Positions 43,480-58,287 of a stretch of 64,000 bases of DNA are shown in pieces. The stretch is from assembly GCA_963422375.2 (NCBI GenBank), contig OY729428.2:1696001-1760000 (forward strand), read 5' to 3'. The notes under the pieces were generated by a model that made no database searches, was not told where the DNA came from, and saw only the letters and a list, made by a program, of their open reading frames with translations. Every line of letters begins with the position of its first letter. Position 1 is the first letter of the stretch. The translations under genes and the position numbers were made by a program. The stretch comes from Bryobacterales bacterium. Its GTDB lineage: Bacteria; Acidobacteriota; Terriglobia; Bryobacterales; UBA6623.

Positions 43480-44900
43480 GACCCACAAAGCGGGGAGGAC
43501 TCGCCGTAGGGCGGGCCTCGGGTCCTGCGGCGTGGGCATATTCACCCGAGTCTTACGCATGGCGGGCTGAGAGATTCACTCGGAGAGTGCCATACCCGTT
43601 CATTGCACTGCTCGGAGAAACTCCATGGAATGCTGTCTTGACTTCCACGCTCGATCCAACATTGGTCGAATTGTTTTCGGGATAAGAGAGAGTTCCAGAA
43701 GTTATCTTGACGGACGCTAAAACGCCTCCTGGAATCCGAAGAAGAAGACGCCCTCCAATTCATTTTCTCTCTAGCCATGCAGCATTGAGAGACGCCAATG
43801 AACTCCCTACAGCAAATTGAAAACCACCGCCGAATTCAACATGTGGTTCCTCTCTCTAATCGTGTGTTGGACACAGCCACAAATCTCGGGATCATCGTTG
43901 TCGAGGGATTCAACAGCGGCAACGATCTCATGAGACTTGGAGATATACTAGAAACTCTCGAGAGTGCATCCGGTGGGCAGGTGCTTTGGTTTGGAGGAGC
44001 TCATCAAATGAATCATGAATACAAGATTGATCTCAATGCGGGGGTCGAGTCTCGACAGATCCTAATGGTTGAGGAATACCTAAGTACTATAATCGCAGAT
44101 CTCCGTGCAATCGGCAAGCTCGGAAGGGTCATTGAATCGGATTCTGAGGAAGTCGTAATCATTACACATAAGAATGGAAATCAACTCGAGACTACTCATC
44201 ATCTCCGCTTGACGGTTTGAGCAGTCGCCTCAATTGTCGACGATGCGTAGACCGCCTTTCTTCCATCCTTAGGGCCGGTGTAGAATATGATGCCGTTCGC
44301 AAATTACATGGTCAATTAAGAGGTCTTCGTGCTCTTGTTGAAGGTGTGCATCGAGAGTTTTCCATCAGGCGCGAATTAGAATGAGTCTTGTATCACCGAG
44401 AAGCTACCGGAATCTCTAGCCACTCGGCCTTGAATGATCCGATTGTTATGCACGGGAAATCTAGTACAGGAGTTACCGGTCAGGAGTCTATCGGTAGTAG
44501 GGATATATTTGAACGGCCCCGGAAGACTCCACTTCGCATGGGGCGTCGTACGCTTGTCTGCAGCCCCCTGCCTCTTGTCAGCGGTCCGACAGTGTGACAT
44601 AGGCAGTACTCGTCAGGCACGCGATAATTGCCGTGGAAGAGACTCTCACGAGATCAGATTTGAGTGGAGAATAGCCTAGCAAGATTCCGAAGCTTGCGGA
44701 GCATCGCAAGTCTTGAATTGTTCGAGGTGCAACGACCGGTCCTGAGGTACTCTATATGCCAAGAATGTATTGGATTGATGGATTTGCGTTTCGGTTCAGT
44801 TTCGAGCCCTTGCGTCTGCTTGGTCGGAAAGAATTCCGCTATTGGCCGTCCATGCGGTCGGACAGGTGGGCCTGCACTTAGGACGCTTGGAGGTGTTCTT
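43480..44900 (+). pseudogene. Decayed lower-GC gene for a large P-loop NTPase-like protein
   Basis: Co-linear fragments broken by stops and frameshifts (WNAVLTSTLDP, GIIVVEGF, VLWFGG, PIVMHGKSSTG resembling a Walker A); boundaries approximate. Confidence 0.5.
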
Positions 44901-44928
44901 CAATTGGGGCATCTTTGGCAGATTTCGG

Positions 44929-46020
44929 TCAGTCCGCGGGTTGCAGCCTGTTGATGGCCTCGTGGTCGAACTCCAGTCCTAGTCCGGGCGCTTCGGGAAG
45001 CACGACCTGTCCGTTGACGATGTTGCAGGCCTGCTTGAACAGCGGAAGCGCCCACGGCATGAACTCGACGATGAGGCCGTTAGGCGCCGCCGCGACGCAA
45101 TGCGCGAGGATTTCCGGCGCGAGGTGACTGACGACCGGCCTGTTAAAGCATTCCGCGAGGTGGGCGACCTTCATCCAGTGCGTGATGCCGCCCGCGCGCA
45201 GCAGGTCGACCATCACGATGTCGACGCTCCCTCTCTGGAGCATATGGGCGAACGGGGCGATTCCATAGTGGTACTCCCCCGTAGCGATGGGCGTGTCGAG
45301 CGCGTCGGCCACCCGCGCCATGCCGTCATAGTCCTGATGGTGGATGGGATCCTCCAGCCAGAATAGCCCGCACTCTTCCATCGAGCGTCCGACCCGAATC
45401 GCTCGATCTACGCTCCACCCTTGGTTGATGTCGACCATCAGGTCGACTTCGTCGCCCACCGCCTCGCGCAATGACCGCATGCGCTGAACTTCCTCTGCTG
45501 CCGATTCCGCGCTGCCCATGCGAAACTTCATGGCCCGAAATCCTTGGGACACGAGCTCGGATCCCTTGCGGGCAAGTCTCGTGGCGTCGTAGTCCCGCCA
45601 CAGGAAACCGCTGGCGTAGGCTTCGACGCGGTTCGACCCGCCCCCGAGCAGGCGGAAGAGCGGCTGACCGGCGGCCTTTGCCTTGATGTCCCACAAAGCC
45701 ACGTCGATAGCCGCTGCGGCAGAAGTCACCAGTCCCGCGGGCGCTCCGAAGCCGCCCAGCTCGAGCAGCGTCGCGCTGACTGACTCGACCGCATGAGGAT
45801 CCTCGCCCACTGCCCGCTCGGCGAGAGCGTTCAACATCTCGCGGAGGGGCTTGAGCATCTCGATGCTGACGAAGCCGGCGTATCCGATCCCTTCGATGCC
45901 TTGGTCGGTCCGCAGTTCGACCGTCGCGAAATTGGCGACCTTGGCGGCAATCGATTCTTGGGCGAGATCGGCCAGCTGGGACGGGCAGGCGACCCGCGTT
46001 CGGAAGGAGCAGATCTTCAT
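44929..46020 (-). CDS. Mandelate racemase / muconate-lactonizing (enolase superfamily) protein
   Basis: AAIDVALWDIKAK, MVDINQ, WLEDP, PIATGE, GGIT, PGLGLE. Confidence 0.92.
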   Translation of the reverse strand: MKICSFRTRVACPSQLADLAQESIAAKVANFATVELRTDQGIEGIGYAGFVSIEMLKPLREMLNALAERAVGEDPHAVESVSATLLELGGFGAPAGLVTSAAAAIDVALWDIKAKAAGQPLFRLLGGGSNRVEAYASGFLWRDYDATRLARKGSELVSQGFRAMKFRMGSAESAAEEVQRMRSLREAVGDEVDLMVDINQGWSVDRAIRVGRSMEECGLFWLEDPIHHQDYDGMARVADALDTPIATGEYHYGIAPFAHMLQRGSVDIVMVDLLRAGGITHWMKVAHLAECFNRPVVSHLAPEILAHCVAAAPNGLIVEFMPWALPLFKQACNIVNGQVVLPEAPGLGLEFDHEAINRLQPAD

Positions 46021-53038: not shown

Positions 53039-53047
53039 TGCTATAAT
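53039..53047 (+). promoter_or_regulatory. Extended -10 promoter of the DUF2791/SNF2 operon
   Basis: TGCTATAAT followed by a GGGGAG RBS and ATG 53075. Confidence 0.65.
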
Positions 53048-53074
53048 GAAAGATTAACGTTCAGGGGAGTTCGA

Positions 53075-53929
53075 ATGGCGGCCTCGGTCGCCTGTAGGCG
53101 CACGACGGAGGCAAGGCACCGAGTGGCAACGTACGAGCAAGCTCTTGCAGCGGCCGAAGCGGCCGCGCTAAAGGTCCGAGACGCAGCCGCCGCCACGAGA
53201 GTGGCGGCCGGCAGGCTGTCGAAAGCAGCCGAACTCGGCAAGATGGCGGATTTCAGAAGATTCACCGAACACCTCGACGTTTCGATCGCGACCTTGAACG
53301 AGTCGGCGGCTAGCCTGCGGGGGGCTACGGACGCGACGCTGGCGTGGCCGGGGCAGGACAGAGACTCGGGCGCGTCGTTCGAGGACTGCTACAGCGAGGA
53401 ACTTTGCCAGGTCGCGGCCTCCGAGAATGTGATAGTCGAACGGCGCGAGAGCCAGCTCGTCTCGTTTCCTTCTGTTATCCGCGTCCTTCCCGGTTCGAGG
53501 GCGCTCGAGGTCGACAAGAAGAAGGAGCACGTGACTCGGCCGTCCAAGGTCGTCGGCATCTTGCAGGCGAAGCAGAAGAGGCTGGACAAGTTCAAGCCGG
53601 AAAACTTCATCGAGGCACTCTACAAGGTCTACGCATACCTCACAGAGGATACGTCGTCCGCCAGGCTGATGGCAAACGACCGTCCGCCCGTGCTCCTGTC
53701 CAAGATCTACGGGTGCTGGAACGCGCTGCCCGGGGCTAAGTACACGAAGGCTGACTTCTCCAGGGATCTTTTCGTGCTCGATTACAAGGGAGTGCGGACG
53801 ACGAGAAAGGGGAAGTTGCTCTCGATGCAGGCAGCGACAGGTACTAGGAGGTCCGGCTTCTTCACGTTCGTCGGGCCGGACGGACAGGAAGGCAAGTACT
53901 ATTCGGTCAAGTTTTCGGAGCGAGGCTGA
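53075..53929 (+). CDS. Hypothetical protein (Ala-rich helical N-terminus, globular C-terminus); first gene of putative defence operon
   Basis: RBS plus ATG 53075 (alternative GTG 53123); TGATG coupling with the next gene. Confidence 0.8.
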   Translation: MAASVACRRTTEARHRVATYEQALAAAEAAALKVRDAAAATRVAAGRLSKAAELGKMADFRRFTEHLDVSIATLNESAASLRGATDATLAWPGQDRDSGASFEDCYSEELCQVAASENVIVERRESQLVSFPSVIRVLPGSRALEVDKKKEHVTRPSKVVGILQAKQKRLDKFKPENFIEALYKVYAYLTEDTSSARLMANDRPPVLLSKIYGCWNALPGAKYTKADFSRDLFVLDYKGVRTTRKGKLLSMQAATGTRRSGFFTFVGPDGQEGKYYSVKFSERG

Positions 53930-54873
53930 TGCCGAAAGCCTATTCGCCCGATGAATGGCTGGACGTGGTCGAGAGGGAATACCTGTCCGGCTTCATCCCC
54001 GACGGAGGGGCCACGATCAAGTTCGTCGTGTCTTCCGAAGGGTTGAGGAGGCGGCTGATCGAGGATGCGACGTATCGATGCGAGCGACTGGGCTACTTGG
54101 CCTTGGAGGTCGACGCAGCGACTACTCGATTCCACATGCCGCAGGACATTTTCCTGAACCTGTCGGCTCAGATTAGTTGGCCCAGCTTGGCGCGTCGCAT
54201 GGTGTTGCGACTTGCCGAGAAGAACGGCTTCAAGACGGAGGGAATCGATGCGGACAGCGTCGAAGCCGTTTACGAGGCGGTTGCCGATGCCAACGACGTG
54301 GAGATCCGCACCGTGCTGAGGGACTTGATGCACGGCATCGAGCAAGCCGTGGGCAAGAACCGCGACATGCTCAGGGACTTTCGCGAGGCGATGAGGCACC
54401 TCTGCCGAGCGGAGCGGGTTGATGATTCCCACCCGATCGTCGGCTGGCTTGGCGGGGCGCGCGTCAGCAGTGTCAGGGACTTCGGAATCTACACGAGGAT
54501 CGACCGGACCACGGCGCGGTACTTCATAGAGTCCACGCTGATCTGGATTCAACAGGTCGGGTTCAGCGGCACGGTATTGGTCTTGGACAACTCCAGGGTG
54601 ACCGAGGTCGACAGACCCAAGGACGGTAGCCAGTACTATACGAAGGCAAGGGCCATGGACCACTACGAAGTCCTGCGCGAATTCGTGGATGACGCGGACC
54701 GGCTGGTGTCGACGTTCATGCTTGTCGCCGCGGAGGAAGCGTTCGCCGACGACTCCGGGTCAAGGCGCTCGAAGGGCTACGGAATCTACGAGGCGCTGAA
54801 GACTCGCCTAATGCTCGACATTCGCGACAAGACACTGGCCAATCCGGTAGCTTCTCTGGTTCGACTGTCGTAG
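53929..54873 (+). CDS. DUF2791/BrxD-like P-loop protein with degenerate Walker motifs
   Basis: YLSGFIPDGGATIKFVV, then SSEGLRR in place of GxxGxGK; GFSGTVLVLDN; LREFVDD; GIYEALKTRL. Confidence 0.7.
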   Translation: MPKAYSPDEWLDVVEREYLSGFIPDGGATIKFVVSSEGLRRRLIEDATYRCERLGYLALEVDAATTRFHMPQDIFLNLSAQISWPSLARRMVLRLAEKNGFKTEGIDADSVEAVYEAVADANDVEIRTVLRDLMHGIEQAVGKNRDMLRDFREAMRHLCRAERVDDSHPIVGWLGGARVSSVRDFGIYTRIDRTTARYFIESTLIWIQQVGFSGTVLVLDNSRVTEVDRPKDGSQYYTKARAMDHYEVLREFVDDADRLVSTFMLVAAEEAFADDSGSRRSKGYGIYEALKTRLMLDIRDKTLANPVASLVRLS

Positions 54874-54884
54874 GGGGAGTCCGC

Positions 54885-56165
54885 ATGCCTGACAGCAGCA
54901 ACGACCGCCATTGCGCACGGAGAGCCATTGAGGCTCTTCGAAACGGCGTGCCGAACCGCGATGCTGTCCGGTCGCTCGGCTGCGACCAGCCTAGGGCGGA
55001 AGAGGAATTCGACCGGCTCCTTGCCGCTGCTGGGTCGGGCGGAGAGGCGGAGGGCTCCACCGGCATGGTGGTGTCCGGCGATTTCGGCGAGGGCAAGTCG
55101 CACCTGCTCGCGTACTTGCACCAGAGAGCCTTGGACGAACGATTCGTTTGCAGCAAGGTGGCGATCAGCAAGGAGACGCCGCTGTACAACTTGGACAAGG
55201 TCTTCCAGTCGGCGGTTGCGAACGCCAGCGTGCCCGACCACAACGGGCGGCTGATCGAGGAGCTGGCCCTGTCTGCGAAGCTTGATTCGACCTCGTTCGG
55301 CGAGTTCTACGGATGGGTTGCCAACGAGGTCCGGCGCGAGAGACTCAGCCCCATGTTCCAAGCCACCCTGGTGGCCTACGAATGCTCCGACAACTTGGAT
55401 CTCAAGGGGCGCATCGAGGGCTTCTGGTCCGGCGGTCGGCTGAACTCCTCCGACCTCAAGAGAGGGCTGAGAGCGGTCGGCAAGCGCGAGTTCTGCGCCT
55501 TCCGCGCGCCGAGGTTGGCCGACTTGCCGCCTCAGCGCACACGGTTCCTGCTGGAGCTCGTCAAGGGGGCCGGCTACAGTGGCTGGGTGGTGCTCTTGGA
55601 CGAGATCGAATTGATCGGATCCTACTCCCAGCTGCAACGGGGCAGGGCCTACGCCGAGTTCGCTCGCTGGTTCGGTCGCGCGCCCGGCCATCGCTACCCG
55701 GGCTTGGTGGGAGTCGGTGCCGTCACGGGCGATTTCGCTATTGCTTTCATCAGCTCCAGCGGAAGGAGGAAGGACTCGGACTACATCGGCTCGAAGCTGA
55801 GCGCCCGCCCCAGGGACCAGCACTTGGCCCAGCCGGCGGAAGCGGGGATGAGTTTGCTGCAAAATGACTGCATCCCGCTGAAAGTCCTTGACGAGGAGGC
55901 AGAGCGAGCCGCCTTGGTGCGGTTGCGCGAGCTCTACAGCGAGGCCTACGGCTGGACCGCGCCCGATCCTCAGAGGATCCGTCATCCGGTCGGAGTGCAG
56001 AATCGCATGCGTTACAAGGTTCGGTCCGCGATCAACGAATGGGACCTGACGAGGCTCGATCCAGAGTCCGCGCCGGAGACAGTTGCCGACGATTTCCGGC
56101 CTAGGTTCGATGGCGTGCCAGACGCCCTTGAAGTTGGTCCCGCCGGACTCGCTGACCTTGAGTAG
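54885..56165 (+). CDS. DUF2791/BrxD-like AAA ATPase
   Basis: RRAIEALRNGVP N-terminus, Walker A GDFGEGKS, ISKETPL, GYSGWVVLLDEIE Walker B. Confidence 0.85.
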   Translation: MPDSSNDRHCARRAIEALRNGVPNRDAVRSLGCDQPRAEEEFDRLLAAAGSGGEAEGSTGMVVSGDFGEGKSHLLAYLHQRALDERFVCSKVAISKETPLYNLDKVFQSAVANASVPDHNGRLIEELALSAKLDSTSFGEFYGWVANEVRRERLSPMFQATLVAYECSDNLDLKGRIEGFWSGGRLNSSDLKRGLRAVGKREFCAFRAPRLADLPPQRTRFLLELVKGAGYSGWVVLLDEIELIGSYSQLQRGRAYAEFARWFGRAPGHRYPGLVGVGAVTGDFAIAFISSSGRRKDSDYIGSKLSARPRDQHLAQPAEAGMSLLQNDCIPLKVLDEEAERAALVRLRELYSEAYGWTAPDPQRIRHPVGVQNRMRYKVRSAINEWDLTRLDPESAPETVADDFRPRFDGVPDALEVGPAGLADLE

Positions 56166-56219
56166 AGCAGGCCCTTCGCGTGCTGGTCCCGGGCGGCGCG
56201 ACCTGAGAGGTGATCGGGC

Positions 56220-58287
56220 TTGCCCGTCCCGTTCGACGATCCGTCGGAGGAGGCGTCCGAACCCAGTATCGGCTGGCTGCGCTGCGTTCGGGAAGGGCAC
56301 GGCGACGAACTGCGCGTGGCGCTGTTCCAAACGGACGCGCGGGCGTCCCCGCTAGGATTCTGCTGGACCCGAGCTCACACTCGGGAACGGTTCATCGAGG
56401 CCGGGCCGGCACGGCTGCAAGCCGCGCTGGAGGCCTGCGTCGGGTCGGTATTCCGGAAAGCCGATCCGTCGCCGTCCCTGGTAGTCGGGCTCGCGAGCGA
56501 CCTTCCGACGGAGAGGTGCCTCGGCGCATTGCGAGCTGCAATCCCGTTCGGGTGGATTGAAGGCCGGCCCGGTCATGGCAGATCCCGGGCGCCTGAGCCC
56601 GTGCCTCGCGTCCGTTGGCAGGGAGCGGAACCGCGCCAAGGGACGCCGGCGCAGCGTCTGTTGCTCGCCGCGATGAACCGGGCTGACCCGGTGGAGCCCT
56701 TGGAACGAGCTGCTCGGGGGTTGGACGAGGTCTGTTCCGACACTTCGGATGGTGCTTGGGCCGGCGACCCCGACCTTGCCTTGTCGCTCGGCCCTCGCGT
56801 GCTGTCATCCTCCGTTCATTCCCGGCGAAGTCCGCCGGGCCGGTTTGACGGTCCGGCCGGCGGCTCCCCGACGCTGGCCAGTCGGATGCGCTCCGTGCTG
56901 GCGCCTGCGCCGTCTCTCGCGGCTATTGCCGGCGATCTGAACCTCGCTTGGCCCGGCTACCTCAGGCCGTTCCAAGTCGATGGGGTGCGCGCCTTGCTTG
57001 ATAGGGATCGCTTGCTTCTCGCGGACGACATGGGTCTCGGCAAGACGCTTGCAAGCCGTCGTGGCGTTCCGAATCCTGCGAGCGAAGGGCGATGCTGGCA
57101 GGTGTCTGGTAATCGCGCCGGCCAGCGTGCTCGAGCACTGGCGCAGGGAATTCGGAAAGTGGGCGCCCGAGGTCCGCACGCTCCAGGTCCGCGGAGCCGC
57201 CAACGATAGGGACTGGCAGTGGCGAGCGGACATCGACGCGTTTCTCGTGAGCTACGACACGCTGCGAATCGACCTTAGGCGCTCTGAGTTCGTCCGCCGG
57301 CGTACTTGGGACGTCGTTATCGCCGACGAGGCGCAGAGAATCAAGAACCGGAACGTCACGAGCTTCGCGATCAAGGGCGTCCTCCGCTCGCGGTCATGGG
57401 CCTTGACCGGCACACCCTTGGAGAATCGGGAGGCGGAACTGGCTTCCGTAATAGAATGCGTCGACGATGATCTCCCAGGGTACCCAACCCGGCAGGTGCC
57501 TGGACCCGCGCTACGCGCCGTGCATCGCGAGCTCCAACTCCGGCGCAAGAAGGCGGACGTACTGGAGCAGCTGCCTCCCAAGCAGGTCACCAAGCTCGGA
57601 ATCGACCTGACCCCGGGCCAGCGGGAGAGCTACGAACGAGCGGAGCGCAAGGGCATTGTCTTCCTCAAGTCCCTCGGCAAAGATGTCCGCATCACTCACG
57701 TTCTCGCGCTGATAACCCGACTGAAGCAGATCTGCAACGCCGACCCAGAATCCGGCGATTCAAGCAAGCTGGACGACATCCGGGACCGCATGGAGCAGCT
57801 CGTAGCCGAGGGCCACAAGGCGCTCGTGTTTTCGCAATTCACGGACGCCACATTCGGTGTGGCGGCCGTCGAGAGGCACTTGCGCCAGTTCAATCCCCTG
57901 TGCATCACCGGCACGACTGCCCAAGAGGACCGGGCCGGGGTTGTGGACCGGTTCAAGTCGGACAGGGCGTGCCCAGTGCTCGTCCTGTCCCTGCGCGTCG
58001 GCTCGCTGGGACTGAACTTGCAGGAAGCCTCCTACGTGTTTCACCTTGACCGCTGGTGGAATCCTGCGGTGGAACGGCAGGCCGAGGACCGCAGCCATCG
58101 CCACGGTCAGACCGTCAAGGTCAACGTCGTCAAGTACTCCTGCGTCGGCACGATCGAAGACCGCATCGACGAAATCCTCGAGGAGAAGCAGTTGCTGTTC
58201 GACGAGATCGTAGACGATGTGTCGATTGATGTCAGTGCCAGGCTGAGCTTGGAGGAACTCTTGAGTCTCTTCAACTTGCAGCGCTAG
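56220..58287 (+). pseudogene. SNF2-family helicase with uncharacterised N-terminal domain; single +1 frameshift at ~57048 (real lesion or sequencing error)
   Basis: LRPFQ..LLLADDMGLGKT | LQAVVA, IAPASV..W..E, IADEAQRIKN, LTGTPLEN, KALVFSQF, GLNLQEAS..DRWWNPAVERQAEDRSHRHGQ. Confidence 0.85.

What the first reader, a model, noticed from the sequence alone, without database searches (positions are those of the whole stretch)
53039..58287. Candidate undescribed defence system: hypothetical + tandem DUF2791/BrxD-like ATPases + SNF2 helicase
Seen in sequence: four co-directional, tightly spaced genes (TGATG overlap, 11-nt and 54-nt gaps) under their own TGCTATAAT promoter, sitting between gcvT and a quinoprotein gene. 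Established knowledge: DUF2791 ATPases occur in type 2 BREX (BrxD) and Shango (SngB, with a TerB-like SngA and a non-SNF2 helicase SngC), and SNF2 helicases recur in defence systems. No pglX, pglZ, brxC or TerB gene is present in the window, the ATPase is doubled, and the helicase is SNF2-type. Inference: a distinct BrxD-family anti-phage module.
Basis: partly seen in the sequence, partly recalled or inferred. Interest (0 to 1): 0.85.

Follow-up and report, generated by a model that had tools for sequence, protein, structure and literature searches.

The report
Unnamed split-ATPase trio with optional helicase
Four tightly packed genes are a real, mobile, unnamed cassette whose conserved core is an unknown protein plus a dead and a live BrxD-type ATPase; the helicase gene is an optional, swappable add-on that is broken in this genome, and anti-phage defence is the likeliest but untested role.

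Summary
The operon is real: A (no family), B (BrxD-like, no Walker A), C (intact BrxD-like AAA+), and D (RNase H/endonuclease V-fold head plus SNF2). D carries a one-base frameshift that is also seen in an independent study's contigs.

A-B-C is the conserved unit (79 of 80 close loci). D follows in 57 of 80, and 5 of those end in an Mrr nuclease. A distant clade uses an XPB-like helicase instead (25 of 42). In random genome samples 12 of 14 loci have no helicase. Helicase-less trios form whole clades under purifying selection.

B keeps BrxD's arginine-finger motif (78/78). C keeps Walker A/B and sensor 2 (121/121). This suggests one shared B:C active site (inferred).

No PADLOC, Pfam or NCBIfam system and no paper searched names it. 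It is neither BREX nor Shango. Distribution is patchy and horizontal. Neighbourhood support for defence is weak: 34/152 versus 18/144 control genes (p=0.03), and not significant for restriction-type genes.

Best reading: an untested anti-phage or anti-plasmid module (about 0.55). This scan noted the cassette before on at least eight other genomes.

The parts
53039..53047 (+). Extended -10 promoter-like element TGCTATAAT (no -35); AGGGGAG ribosome-binding site at 53063-53069
   Evidence: 12 TGnTATAAT in the whole genome; not listed by the sigma-70 scan; function not tested
53075..53929 (+). Gene A, 284 aa, no known family. N-terminal helical hairpin/coiled coil (20-90), small beta domain with an RPS motif (120-170), C-terminal domain whose helix/strand order resembles a winged helix (175-281; inferred, not matched)
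   Evidence: pLDDT 80.7; 967 clusters at E<=1e-3; no family, PDB or fused form found
53929..54873 (+). Gene B, 314 aa, catalytically dead BrxD-type AAA+ core. No Walker A; Walker B reduced to D-N; no lid; invariant R293 in the BrxD arginine-finger motif
   Evidence: hhalign to BrxD/SngB-type profile: prob 99.6, E 1.2e-23; Walker A 0/78; R293 78/78
54885..56165 (+). Gene C, 426 aa, intact BrxD-type AAA+ ATPase (Walker A K71, Walker B D239/E240, sensor-2-like R376). Finger motif eroded (K304 here)
   Evidence: prob 99.9, E 1.5e-34; K, D, E and R each 121/121; finger position R77/K42/W2
56220..56783 (+). Head domain E of gene D: RNase H fold closest to endonuclease V / DUF99-like / PIWI / UvrC; a separate gene in 22 of 80 relatives; probably not a canonical nuclease
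56220..58287 (+). Gene D, E-head plus SNF2 DNA translocase, split by a +1 frameshift at 57049-57050 just after Walker A; probably helicase-dead in this strain
   Evidence: break present in contigs of X1, X4, X5; homologues in frame

Best explanation
A, B and C form a stand-alone, ATP-switched nucleic-acid-handling complex of an unnamed counter-invader (anti-phage or anti-plasmid) module.

Shown by sequence: C can bind and hydrolyse ATP; B cannot, but keeps the trans-acting arginine finger; A always travels with them.

Inferred steps:
1. B and C make one composite active site, a BrxD oligomer split into a 'cis' and a 'trans' half.
2. A supplies in trans the coiled coil and the DNA-binding (winged-helix-like) part that BrxD-type ATPases lack.
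3. The trio clamps on foreign DNA. It either blocks its replication alone or loads an optional SF2 motor: SNF2 with or without an Mrr nuclease and the EndoV-fold head, or an XPB-like helicase in another clade.

In this genome the motor is frameshifted, so only the trio, and perhaps a truncated E protein, could still act.
For: - Conservation: A-B-C in this order in 79 of 80 loci, in every sufficiently long one of 80 distant metagenome loci, and in 14 of 14 loci from random phylum samples, one partly deleted.
- Complementary motifs in B and C.
- BrxD-family partners with known roles are defence proteins: BREX type 2 BrxD-BrxHI, proposed as a helicase loader (PMC12839542 passages), and Shango, which protects against phage (10.1101/2022.11.11.516204 passages).
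- 5 of 57 D proteins end in Mrr_cat, the ZorD arrangement (ZorD is a nuclease, PMC11946911 abstract).
- Two unrelated helicases are used in the same slot.
- Accessory-gene dynamics: 9 of 31 genomes in the genus and 1 of 46 elsewhere in the family; 5 of 300 in the phylum; never beside gcvT in the 8 congeners. Genus copies are not one clade (p-AU 3.8e-7). 3 of 8 congener copies are visibly damaged, besides this one.
- Neighbours that are defence, toxin-antitoxin or mobile genes: 34/152 vs 18/144 (p=0.03).
Against: - No experiment exists.
- Restriction-type neighbours are not significantly enriched (8/152 vs 4/144, p=0.38), and 6 of those 8 come from four related loci (classes assigned by me by hand).
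- The trio alone has no recognisable effector. Yet it is the commonest form in unbiased samples (12 of 14), often among housekeeping genes, and is kept under purifying selection without E or D anywhere in the genome (0 of 21 genomes have E; dN/dS mostly 0.08-0.30).
- C still has R or K at the finger position in 119 of 121 sequences, so it may not need B's finger.
- The winged-helix reading of A rests only on secondary-structure order; no PDB or Pfam match was found.
- No copy was found in IMG/VR or phage records, and only a weak partial BrxD-family match in plasmid records.
Confidence: 0.55

Rival explanations
1. The trio serves the host's own DNA or nucleoprotein upkeep (damage response, replication restart, complex remodelling), and the helicases are occasional partners.
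For: - Helicase-less trios persist in whole clades with dN/dS of about 0.1-0.3 and sit among housekeeping genes in the distant clade.
- The head domain has the fold of repair nucleases EndoV and UvrC.
- SNF2 and XPB-like motors act in repair (established knowledge).
- Single loci lie beside polA, RecD2, UDG, SSB or SbcC.
Against: - It is present in only about 2-3% of sampled genomes and about 30% of one genus, at changing sites.
- It moves horizontally, decays often and has Mrr fusions.
- No repair gene recurs beside it.
Confidence: 0.22
2. The cassette is machinery of a selfish mobile element (a TnsC/IstB-like ATPase pair with a DNA-binding adaptor, and E as a degenerate transposase fold) rather than defence.
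For: - ORC/Cdc6-clade ATPases serve transposons (PMC10853773 passage).
- Transposase or integrase neighbours: 10/152 vs 3/144 (p=0.09).
- Insertion sites vary.
Against: - No transposase or integrase family recurs with the cassette.
- E is missing from most lineages, and its best fold matches are EndoV and PIWI, not DDE enzymes.
- I did not test the ends for inverted repeats or target duplications.
Confidence: 0.1
3. It is a fragment or subtype of a named system (BREX type 2 or Shango) whose other genes lie elsewhere or were lost.
For: B and C are BrxD/SngB-family proteins, and a helicase follows C as in BrxD-BrxHI and SngB-SngC.
Against: - Scores are far under the BrxD cut-off (63 and 34 bits vs 350).
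- No PglZ or BrxC in the genome, and no BREX or Ter gene recurs in 80 loci.
- A has no TerB match in 131 members.
- The helicase is SNF2 or XPB-like, not Lhr-like.
Confidence: 0.05
4. Whatever the family does, this particular copy is a decaying remnant with no current function.
For: - D is frameshifted.
- The window's A-B-C lies on a long branch (0.98 vs median 0.25).
- C differs from the consensus at otherwise conserved residues.
- Damage is common in congeners.
Against: - A, B and C are full length with all catalytic motifs.
- The promoter and ribosome sites are intact.
- Helicase-less trios are viable elsewhere.
- The identical allele is held in samples of two studies.
Confidence: 0.3

Closest known systems
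BrxD-BrxHI dyad of type 2 BREX (Pgl)
   Same: BrxD-family ORC/Cdc6-type AAA+ ATPase without its own DNA-binding domain, directly upstream of an SF2 helicase; helicase loading has been proposed (PMC12839542 passage).
   Different: The ATPase is split into a dead and a live paralogue. There is a novel partner A. The helicase is SNF2 or XPB-like and optional. No PglX, PglZ, PglW or BrxC.
Shango (SngA TerB-like, SngB ATPase, SngC DEAD/DEAH helicase)
   Same: Small self-contained operon: partner protein, same-family ATPase, helicase; a validated anti-phage system.
   Different: No TerB domain, two ATPase genes, a different helicase family; SngB match only 1e-5 over 46 residues.
ZorD of Zorya type I (SNF2 helicase + Mrr-like nuclease)
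   Same: The same two-domain arrangement in 5 of 57 D homologues.
   Different: No ZorA/B/C. Most D proteins, including this one, lack the Mrr domain and have the EndoV-fold head or partner instead.
BrxB/BrxF inactive STAND (iSTAND) beside BrxC
   Same: A Walker-less, lid-less AAA+ core encoded beside an active relative (PMC12839542 section 21).
   Different: BrxB is described as fast-evolving with little conservation. B is well conserved, is derived from BrxD, and keeps an invariant arginine finger.
Endonuclease V / DUF99-like / PIWI RNase H fold
   Different: No sequence-profile similarity. By eye, the first catalytic Asp position holds Arg/Lys in 48 of 49 sequences.

Membership tests
BREX type 2 (Pgl) | PglZ and BrxC/PglY core genes in the locus or genome | tested here: not met
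   0 matches in a 96% complete genome, controls rang; none recurs in 80 loci
BREX type 2 (Pgl) | PglX methyltransferase and PglW | tested here: inconclusive
   Not among recurring neighbours or immediate neighbours; not searched genome-wide
BREX type 2 (Pgl) | BrxD above the NF033438 cut-off (350 bits) | tested here: not met
   C 63 bits, B 33.8 bits; remote homology only
BREX type 2 (Pgl) | BrxHI (Lhr-like) helicase next to BrxD | tested here: not met
   The adjacent helicase is SNF2 or ResIII/XPB-like
Shango | SngA with a TerB-like domain | tested here: not met
   No Ter or SngA match for A or for any of 131 A homologues in Pfam; the genome-wide TerB_C search had no ringing control
Shango | SngB ATPase and SngC DEAD/DEAH helicase | tested here: not met
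   SngB only 1e-5 over the P-loop; D has no SngC match among its best 25
Zorya type I | ZorA/ZorB membrane motor and ZorC beside ZorD | tested here: not met
   No such recurring neighbour; A, B, C and E have no Zor match
BrxD/SngB ATPase family (PF10923) | Pfam gathering score 22.2 and profile-profile homology | tested here: met
   C 68.5 bits, B 32.5 bits; hhalign prob 99.9 and 99.6
Active AAA+ ATPase (gene B) | Walker A GxxxxGK[ST] and Walker B DE | tested here: not met
   0 of 78 have Walker A; the position after the Asp is N, I, L, V or A rather than the catalytic Glu
Endonuclease V | RNase H-like EndoV fold | tested here: met
Endonuclease V | Sequence family PF04493 with PY.P wedge and catalytic Asp triad | tested here: not met
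   No Pfam hit for the head; hhalign to 13 EndoV sequences prob 0.3; residue mapping by eye only
Anti-phage defence system (functional class) | Protection against phage or plasmid in vivo | not testable with these tools
   Needs a plaque or transformation assay
Anti-phage defence system (functional class) | Enrichment beside known defence genes | tested here: inconclusive
   34/152 vs 18/144 (p=0.03) with TA and mobile genes; 8/152 vs 4/144 (p=0.38) for restriction-type genes

The most novel reading that the evidence does not exclude
A-B-C is a new kind of minimal AAA+ machine. An ancestral BrxD oligomer has split into an obligate nucleotide-binding subunit (C) and an arginine-finger subunit (B), armed by a new-family DNA adaptor (A). 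It stops invading DNA with no nuclease of its own and serves as a universal dock for interchangeable SF2 motors, one of which uses an EndoV-fold domain to sense modified or deaminated phage bases. It would be the simplest test bed for what BrxD and SngB do in BREX and Shango.
Probability: 0.3. Interest if true: 0.82.

Novelty: new variant of a known kind. Interest (0 to 1): 0.6.

Why it matters
The role of BrxD-type ATPases in type 2 BREX and Shango is still open; helicase loading is only proposed (PMC12839542). This family separates the ATPase module from everything else. It occurs alone, with an SNF2 or SNF2-Mrr motor, or with an XPB-like motor, so the loader idea and the split active site can be tested directly with point mutants. 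If protective, it adds a defence system found in roughly 2-3% of genomes of the two phyla sampled and missed by the catalogues tested here, with two protein families (A and E) that have no annotation.

Tried and rejected
- Gene A family or fold: no hit in Pfam, PADLOC or NCBIfam and no recurring Pfam family in 131 members. PDB profile hits were only helical bundles. Structure searches matched only the coiled coil. Atlas hits were unnamed clusters. No fused longer form was found (44, weak evidence). The C-terminal domain alone found nothing and was not folded separately, so a winged helix is neither shown nor excluded.
- Complex prediction of A against B+C gave no verdict (score 0.10, mark 0.32).
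- E versus EndoV by profile: no alignment. No PDB sequence hit and no usable Atlas hit for a stand-alone E. No EndoV gene in G000 or in five host genomes.
- Programmed frameshift in D: rejected, because no homologue printed has the shift. Assembly error: rejected.
- Empty-site comparison failed: the best matches to gcvT and to the PQQ gene are not adjacent in the congeners.
- A fifth conserved gene in the near clade: none.
- No relative in IMG/VR or phage records; in plasmids only one weak partial BrxD-family match and none for other queries.
- No RNA holder listed. No tRNA or tmRNA in the window.
- Paper searches found no description of this gene set. DefenseFinder, subscription journals and the supplements of PMC12839542 (gene-neighbourhood tables, which could list such loci) were not seen.
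Full report
OBSERVATION. A-C are somewhat lower in GC (0.60-0.64) than the genome (0.674) and in GC3 (0.79-0.81 vs 0.84-0.91 for five flanking genes). Gene D is in two frames: one extra base at 57049-57050 follows the SNF2 Walker A. Contigs of runs X1 (whole stretch; possibly the source), X4 and X5 (another sample and study) cross this place with no difference; the fourth run laid, X6, gave only short pieces. All other homologues printed are in frame there. The break is therefore real and private to this lineage.

PARTS. C is an intact BrxD-family AAA+ ATPase. B is a shorter relative. Both pass the PF10923 cut-off but fall far below the BrxD equivalog cut-off. I compared profiles of B (78 rows) and C (121 rows) with 18 canonical PF10923 proteins fetched from other genomes. 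Both are clear homologues (prob 99.6 and 99.9), though barely similar to each other. They keep complementary motifs. C has the Walker A Lys, Walker B Asp-Glu and sensor-2-like Arg in 121 of 121. B has Walker A in 0 of 78, no Walker B Glu and no lid, but keeps the ancestral G-x-x-Y-x-A-L-x-x-R motif, with R293 in 78 of 78 (R in 18 of 18 canonical proteins). [quoted passage not shown] In C the motif is eroded, but the aligned position is still R in 77 and K in 42 of 121, so a trans role for B is an inference, not a result.

CONSERVATION. Architectures: A-B-C-ED fused 29; A-B-C-E-D with E separate 21; A-B-C only 21; A-B-C-D without E 6; A-B-C-E at a contig end 2; one lacking A. No fifth gene recurs. 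Five D proteins end in an Mrr_cat nuclease, the ZorD arrangement. The 21 trio-only genomes have no E anywhere (0 of 21; 0 of 3 E-less D loci; 2 of 2 positive controls; completeness not given). Trio-only loci form whole clades: four Spirochaetia, four Bryobacterales/Terriglobia and three pairs. Pairs within them show dN/dS of 0.08-0.30 on all three genes (one value 0.53; pairs with dS over about 1.5 are unreliable).

A scan with a distant A clade gave 80 metagenome loci (best 80 of 587). B follows A in 79 of them, C follows wherever the contig allows, and none has E or SNF2. Of 42 with a complete C and room downstream, 25 have a ResIII/XPB-like helicase directly after C and 17 do not; 41 of the 80 have a further unknown gene upstream. 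Random draws found the trio in 9 of 300 genomes of one phylum (the centre genome, one unpublished genome and four short single hits left out) and 5 of 300 of the window's phylum. Of these 14 loci (two seem to repeat cassettes already held), 2 have an SNF2 gene without E, 12 have no helicase in the slot, and one is partly deleted. So the conserved unit is A-B-C, and the fourth gene is an accessory.

DYNAMICS. C is in 10 of 77 genomes of the family: 9 of 31 in the genus and 1 of 46 elsewhere. None of the 8 congeners has it beside gcvT. Of those 8, five are intact four-gene cassettes, one has a stop in D, one lacks A and D, and one has a split C; the one copy outside the genus is a trio at a contig end. 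Eight genus copies do not form one clade (p-AU 3.8e-7, quick tree, 47 rows chosen by me). Two of them nest among Pseudomonadota copies behind starred branches. The A+B+C tree of 77 loci needs 19 phylum changes against a minimum of 12.

CONTEXT TEST. I called genes with a simple script and took the first gene on each side of the cassette in the 80 loci (152 genes). The control was 144 genes from 19 fixed-coordinate regions of host genomes. All were scanned in Pfam (48, 101, 102) and classed by hand. Defence + toxin-antitoxin + mobile: 34 vs 18 (odds ratio 2.0, p=0.03). Restriction-type only: 8 vs 4 (p=0.38). TA: 11 vs 7. Mobile: 10 vs 3 (p=0.09). Loci are not independent, and these hosts are rich in such genes anyway. 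This is weak support for hotspot residence and none for defence islands specifically.

MECHANISM. Best reading (0.55): an anti-invader module in which C binds ATP, B completes the site, A recognises DNA, and an optional SF2 motor is loaded, with a nuclease in some lineages. Shown: gene order, motif patterns, folds of E and of A's coiled coil, swappable helicase, selection on the trio, horizontal spread. Inferred: complex formation, DNA binding, helicase loading, any protection. The main puzzle is that the trio, with no visible effector, is the commonest form. That keeps a host DNA-maintenance role (0.22) and a mobile-element role (0.1) open. Whether this copy still works is a separate question (remnant, 0.3).

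COMPARISON. It works most like the BrxD-BrxHI dyad and Shango, but fails membership of both and of Zorya (membership table). Papers seen: PMC12839542 (passages, abstract and outline, section 15 part 1, section 21); PMC10853773 (passages); 10.1101/2022.11.11.516204 (passages, 110); 10.1101/2025.09.30.679545 (passages, 92); PMC11946911 (abstract and outline); PMC5099237 (one passage); others as search listings only. None of nine searches returned a description of this gene set. Supplements and DefenseFinder were not seen.

VERDICT. A real, unnamed cassette; a new variant of the ATPase-helicase kind of defence module; interest 0.6. Earlier notes of this scan describe the same cassette on other genomes (8 shown of 9 windows). 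They are leads, not support.

Noticed in passing
L115:240-2009, L117:8268-9980, L125:1836-3494 and 38 further metagenome loci: An unknown ~550-590-aa gene upstream of A in the XPB-helicase clade (41 of 80 loci). No Pfam or PADLOC hit; it makes a five-gene variant.
   Followed up: partly
L021:11266-15260: The SNF2 gene is duplicated in tandem; the second copy lacks the E head.
   Followed up: no
L071:1886-4335: A second, partial copy of A's C-terminal domain lies between A and B.
   Followed up: no
L177:7824-9320 and L185:1-929: A TerB_C-domain gene lies divergently upstream of A in two distant loci (Pfam run on L177 only), a faint echo of Shango. L177 also has an AEP-TOTE primase-helicase downstream.
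   Followed up: no
L263 (G168:C1:1624000-1640000): A very divergent trio (A 4e-12, B 4e-30) flanked by a C5 methylase fragment, a NERD-UvrD gene and two large helicases on the other strand.
   Followed up: no
L019, L020, L024, L037: In these related Caldilineaceae loci the cassette sits in a clear restriction cluster (HNH, GmrSD, AspBHI-like, Eco57I-like, DNA methylase).
   Followed up: partly
L098:12660-16832 and L100:12827-16981: In two congeners a ~1,390-aa SNF2-family gene lies directly upstream of A on the same strand.
   Followed up: no
window:47457-48151: Two overlapping fragments of a PhoX phosphatase gene, apparently a pseudogene.
   Followed up: no
window:43798-44900: A low-GC stretch (0.505 at 44001-45000) with a 140-aa ORF of no family; possibly the remnant of an acquired gene.
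   Followed up: no
window:16520-18304: A TonB-type outer-membrane barrel gene in two pieces.
   Followed up: no
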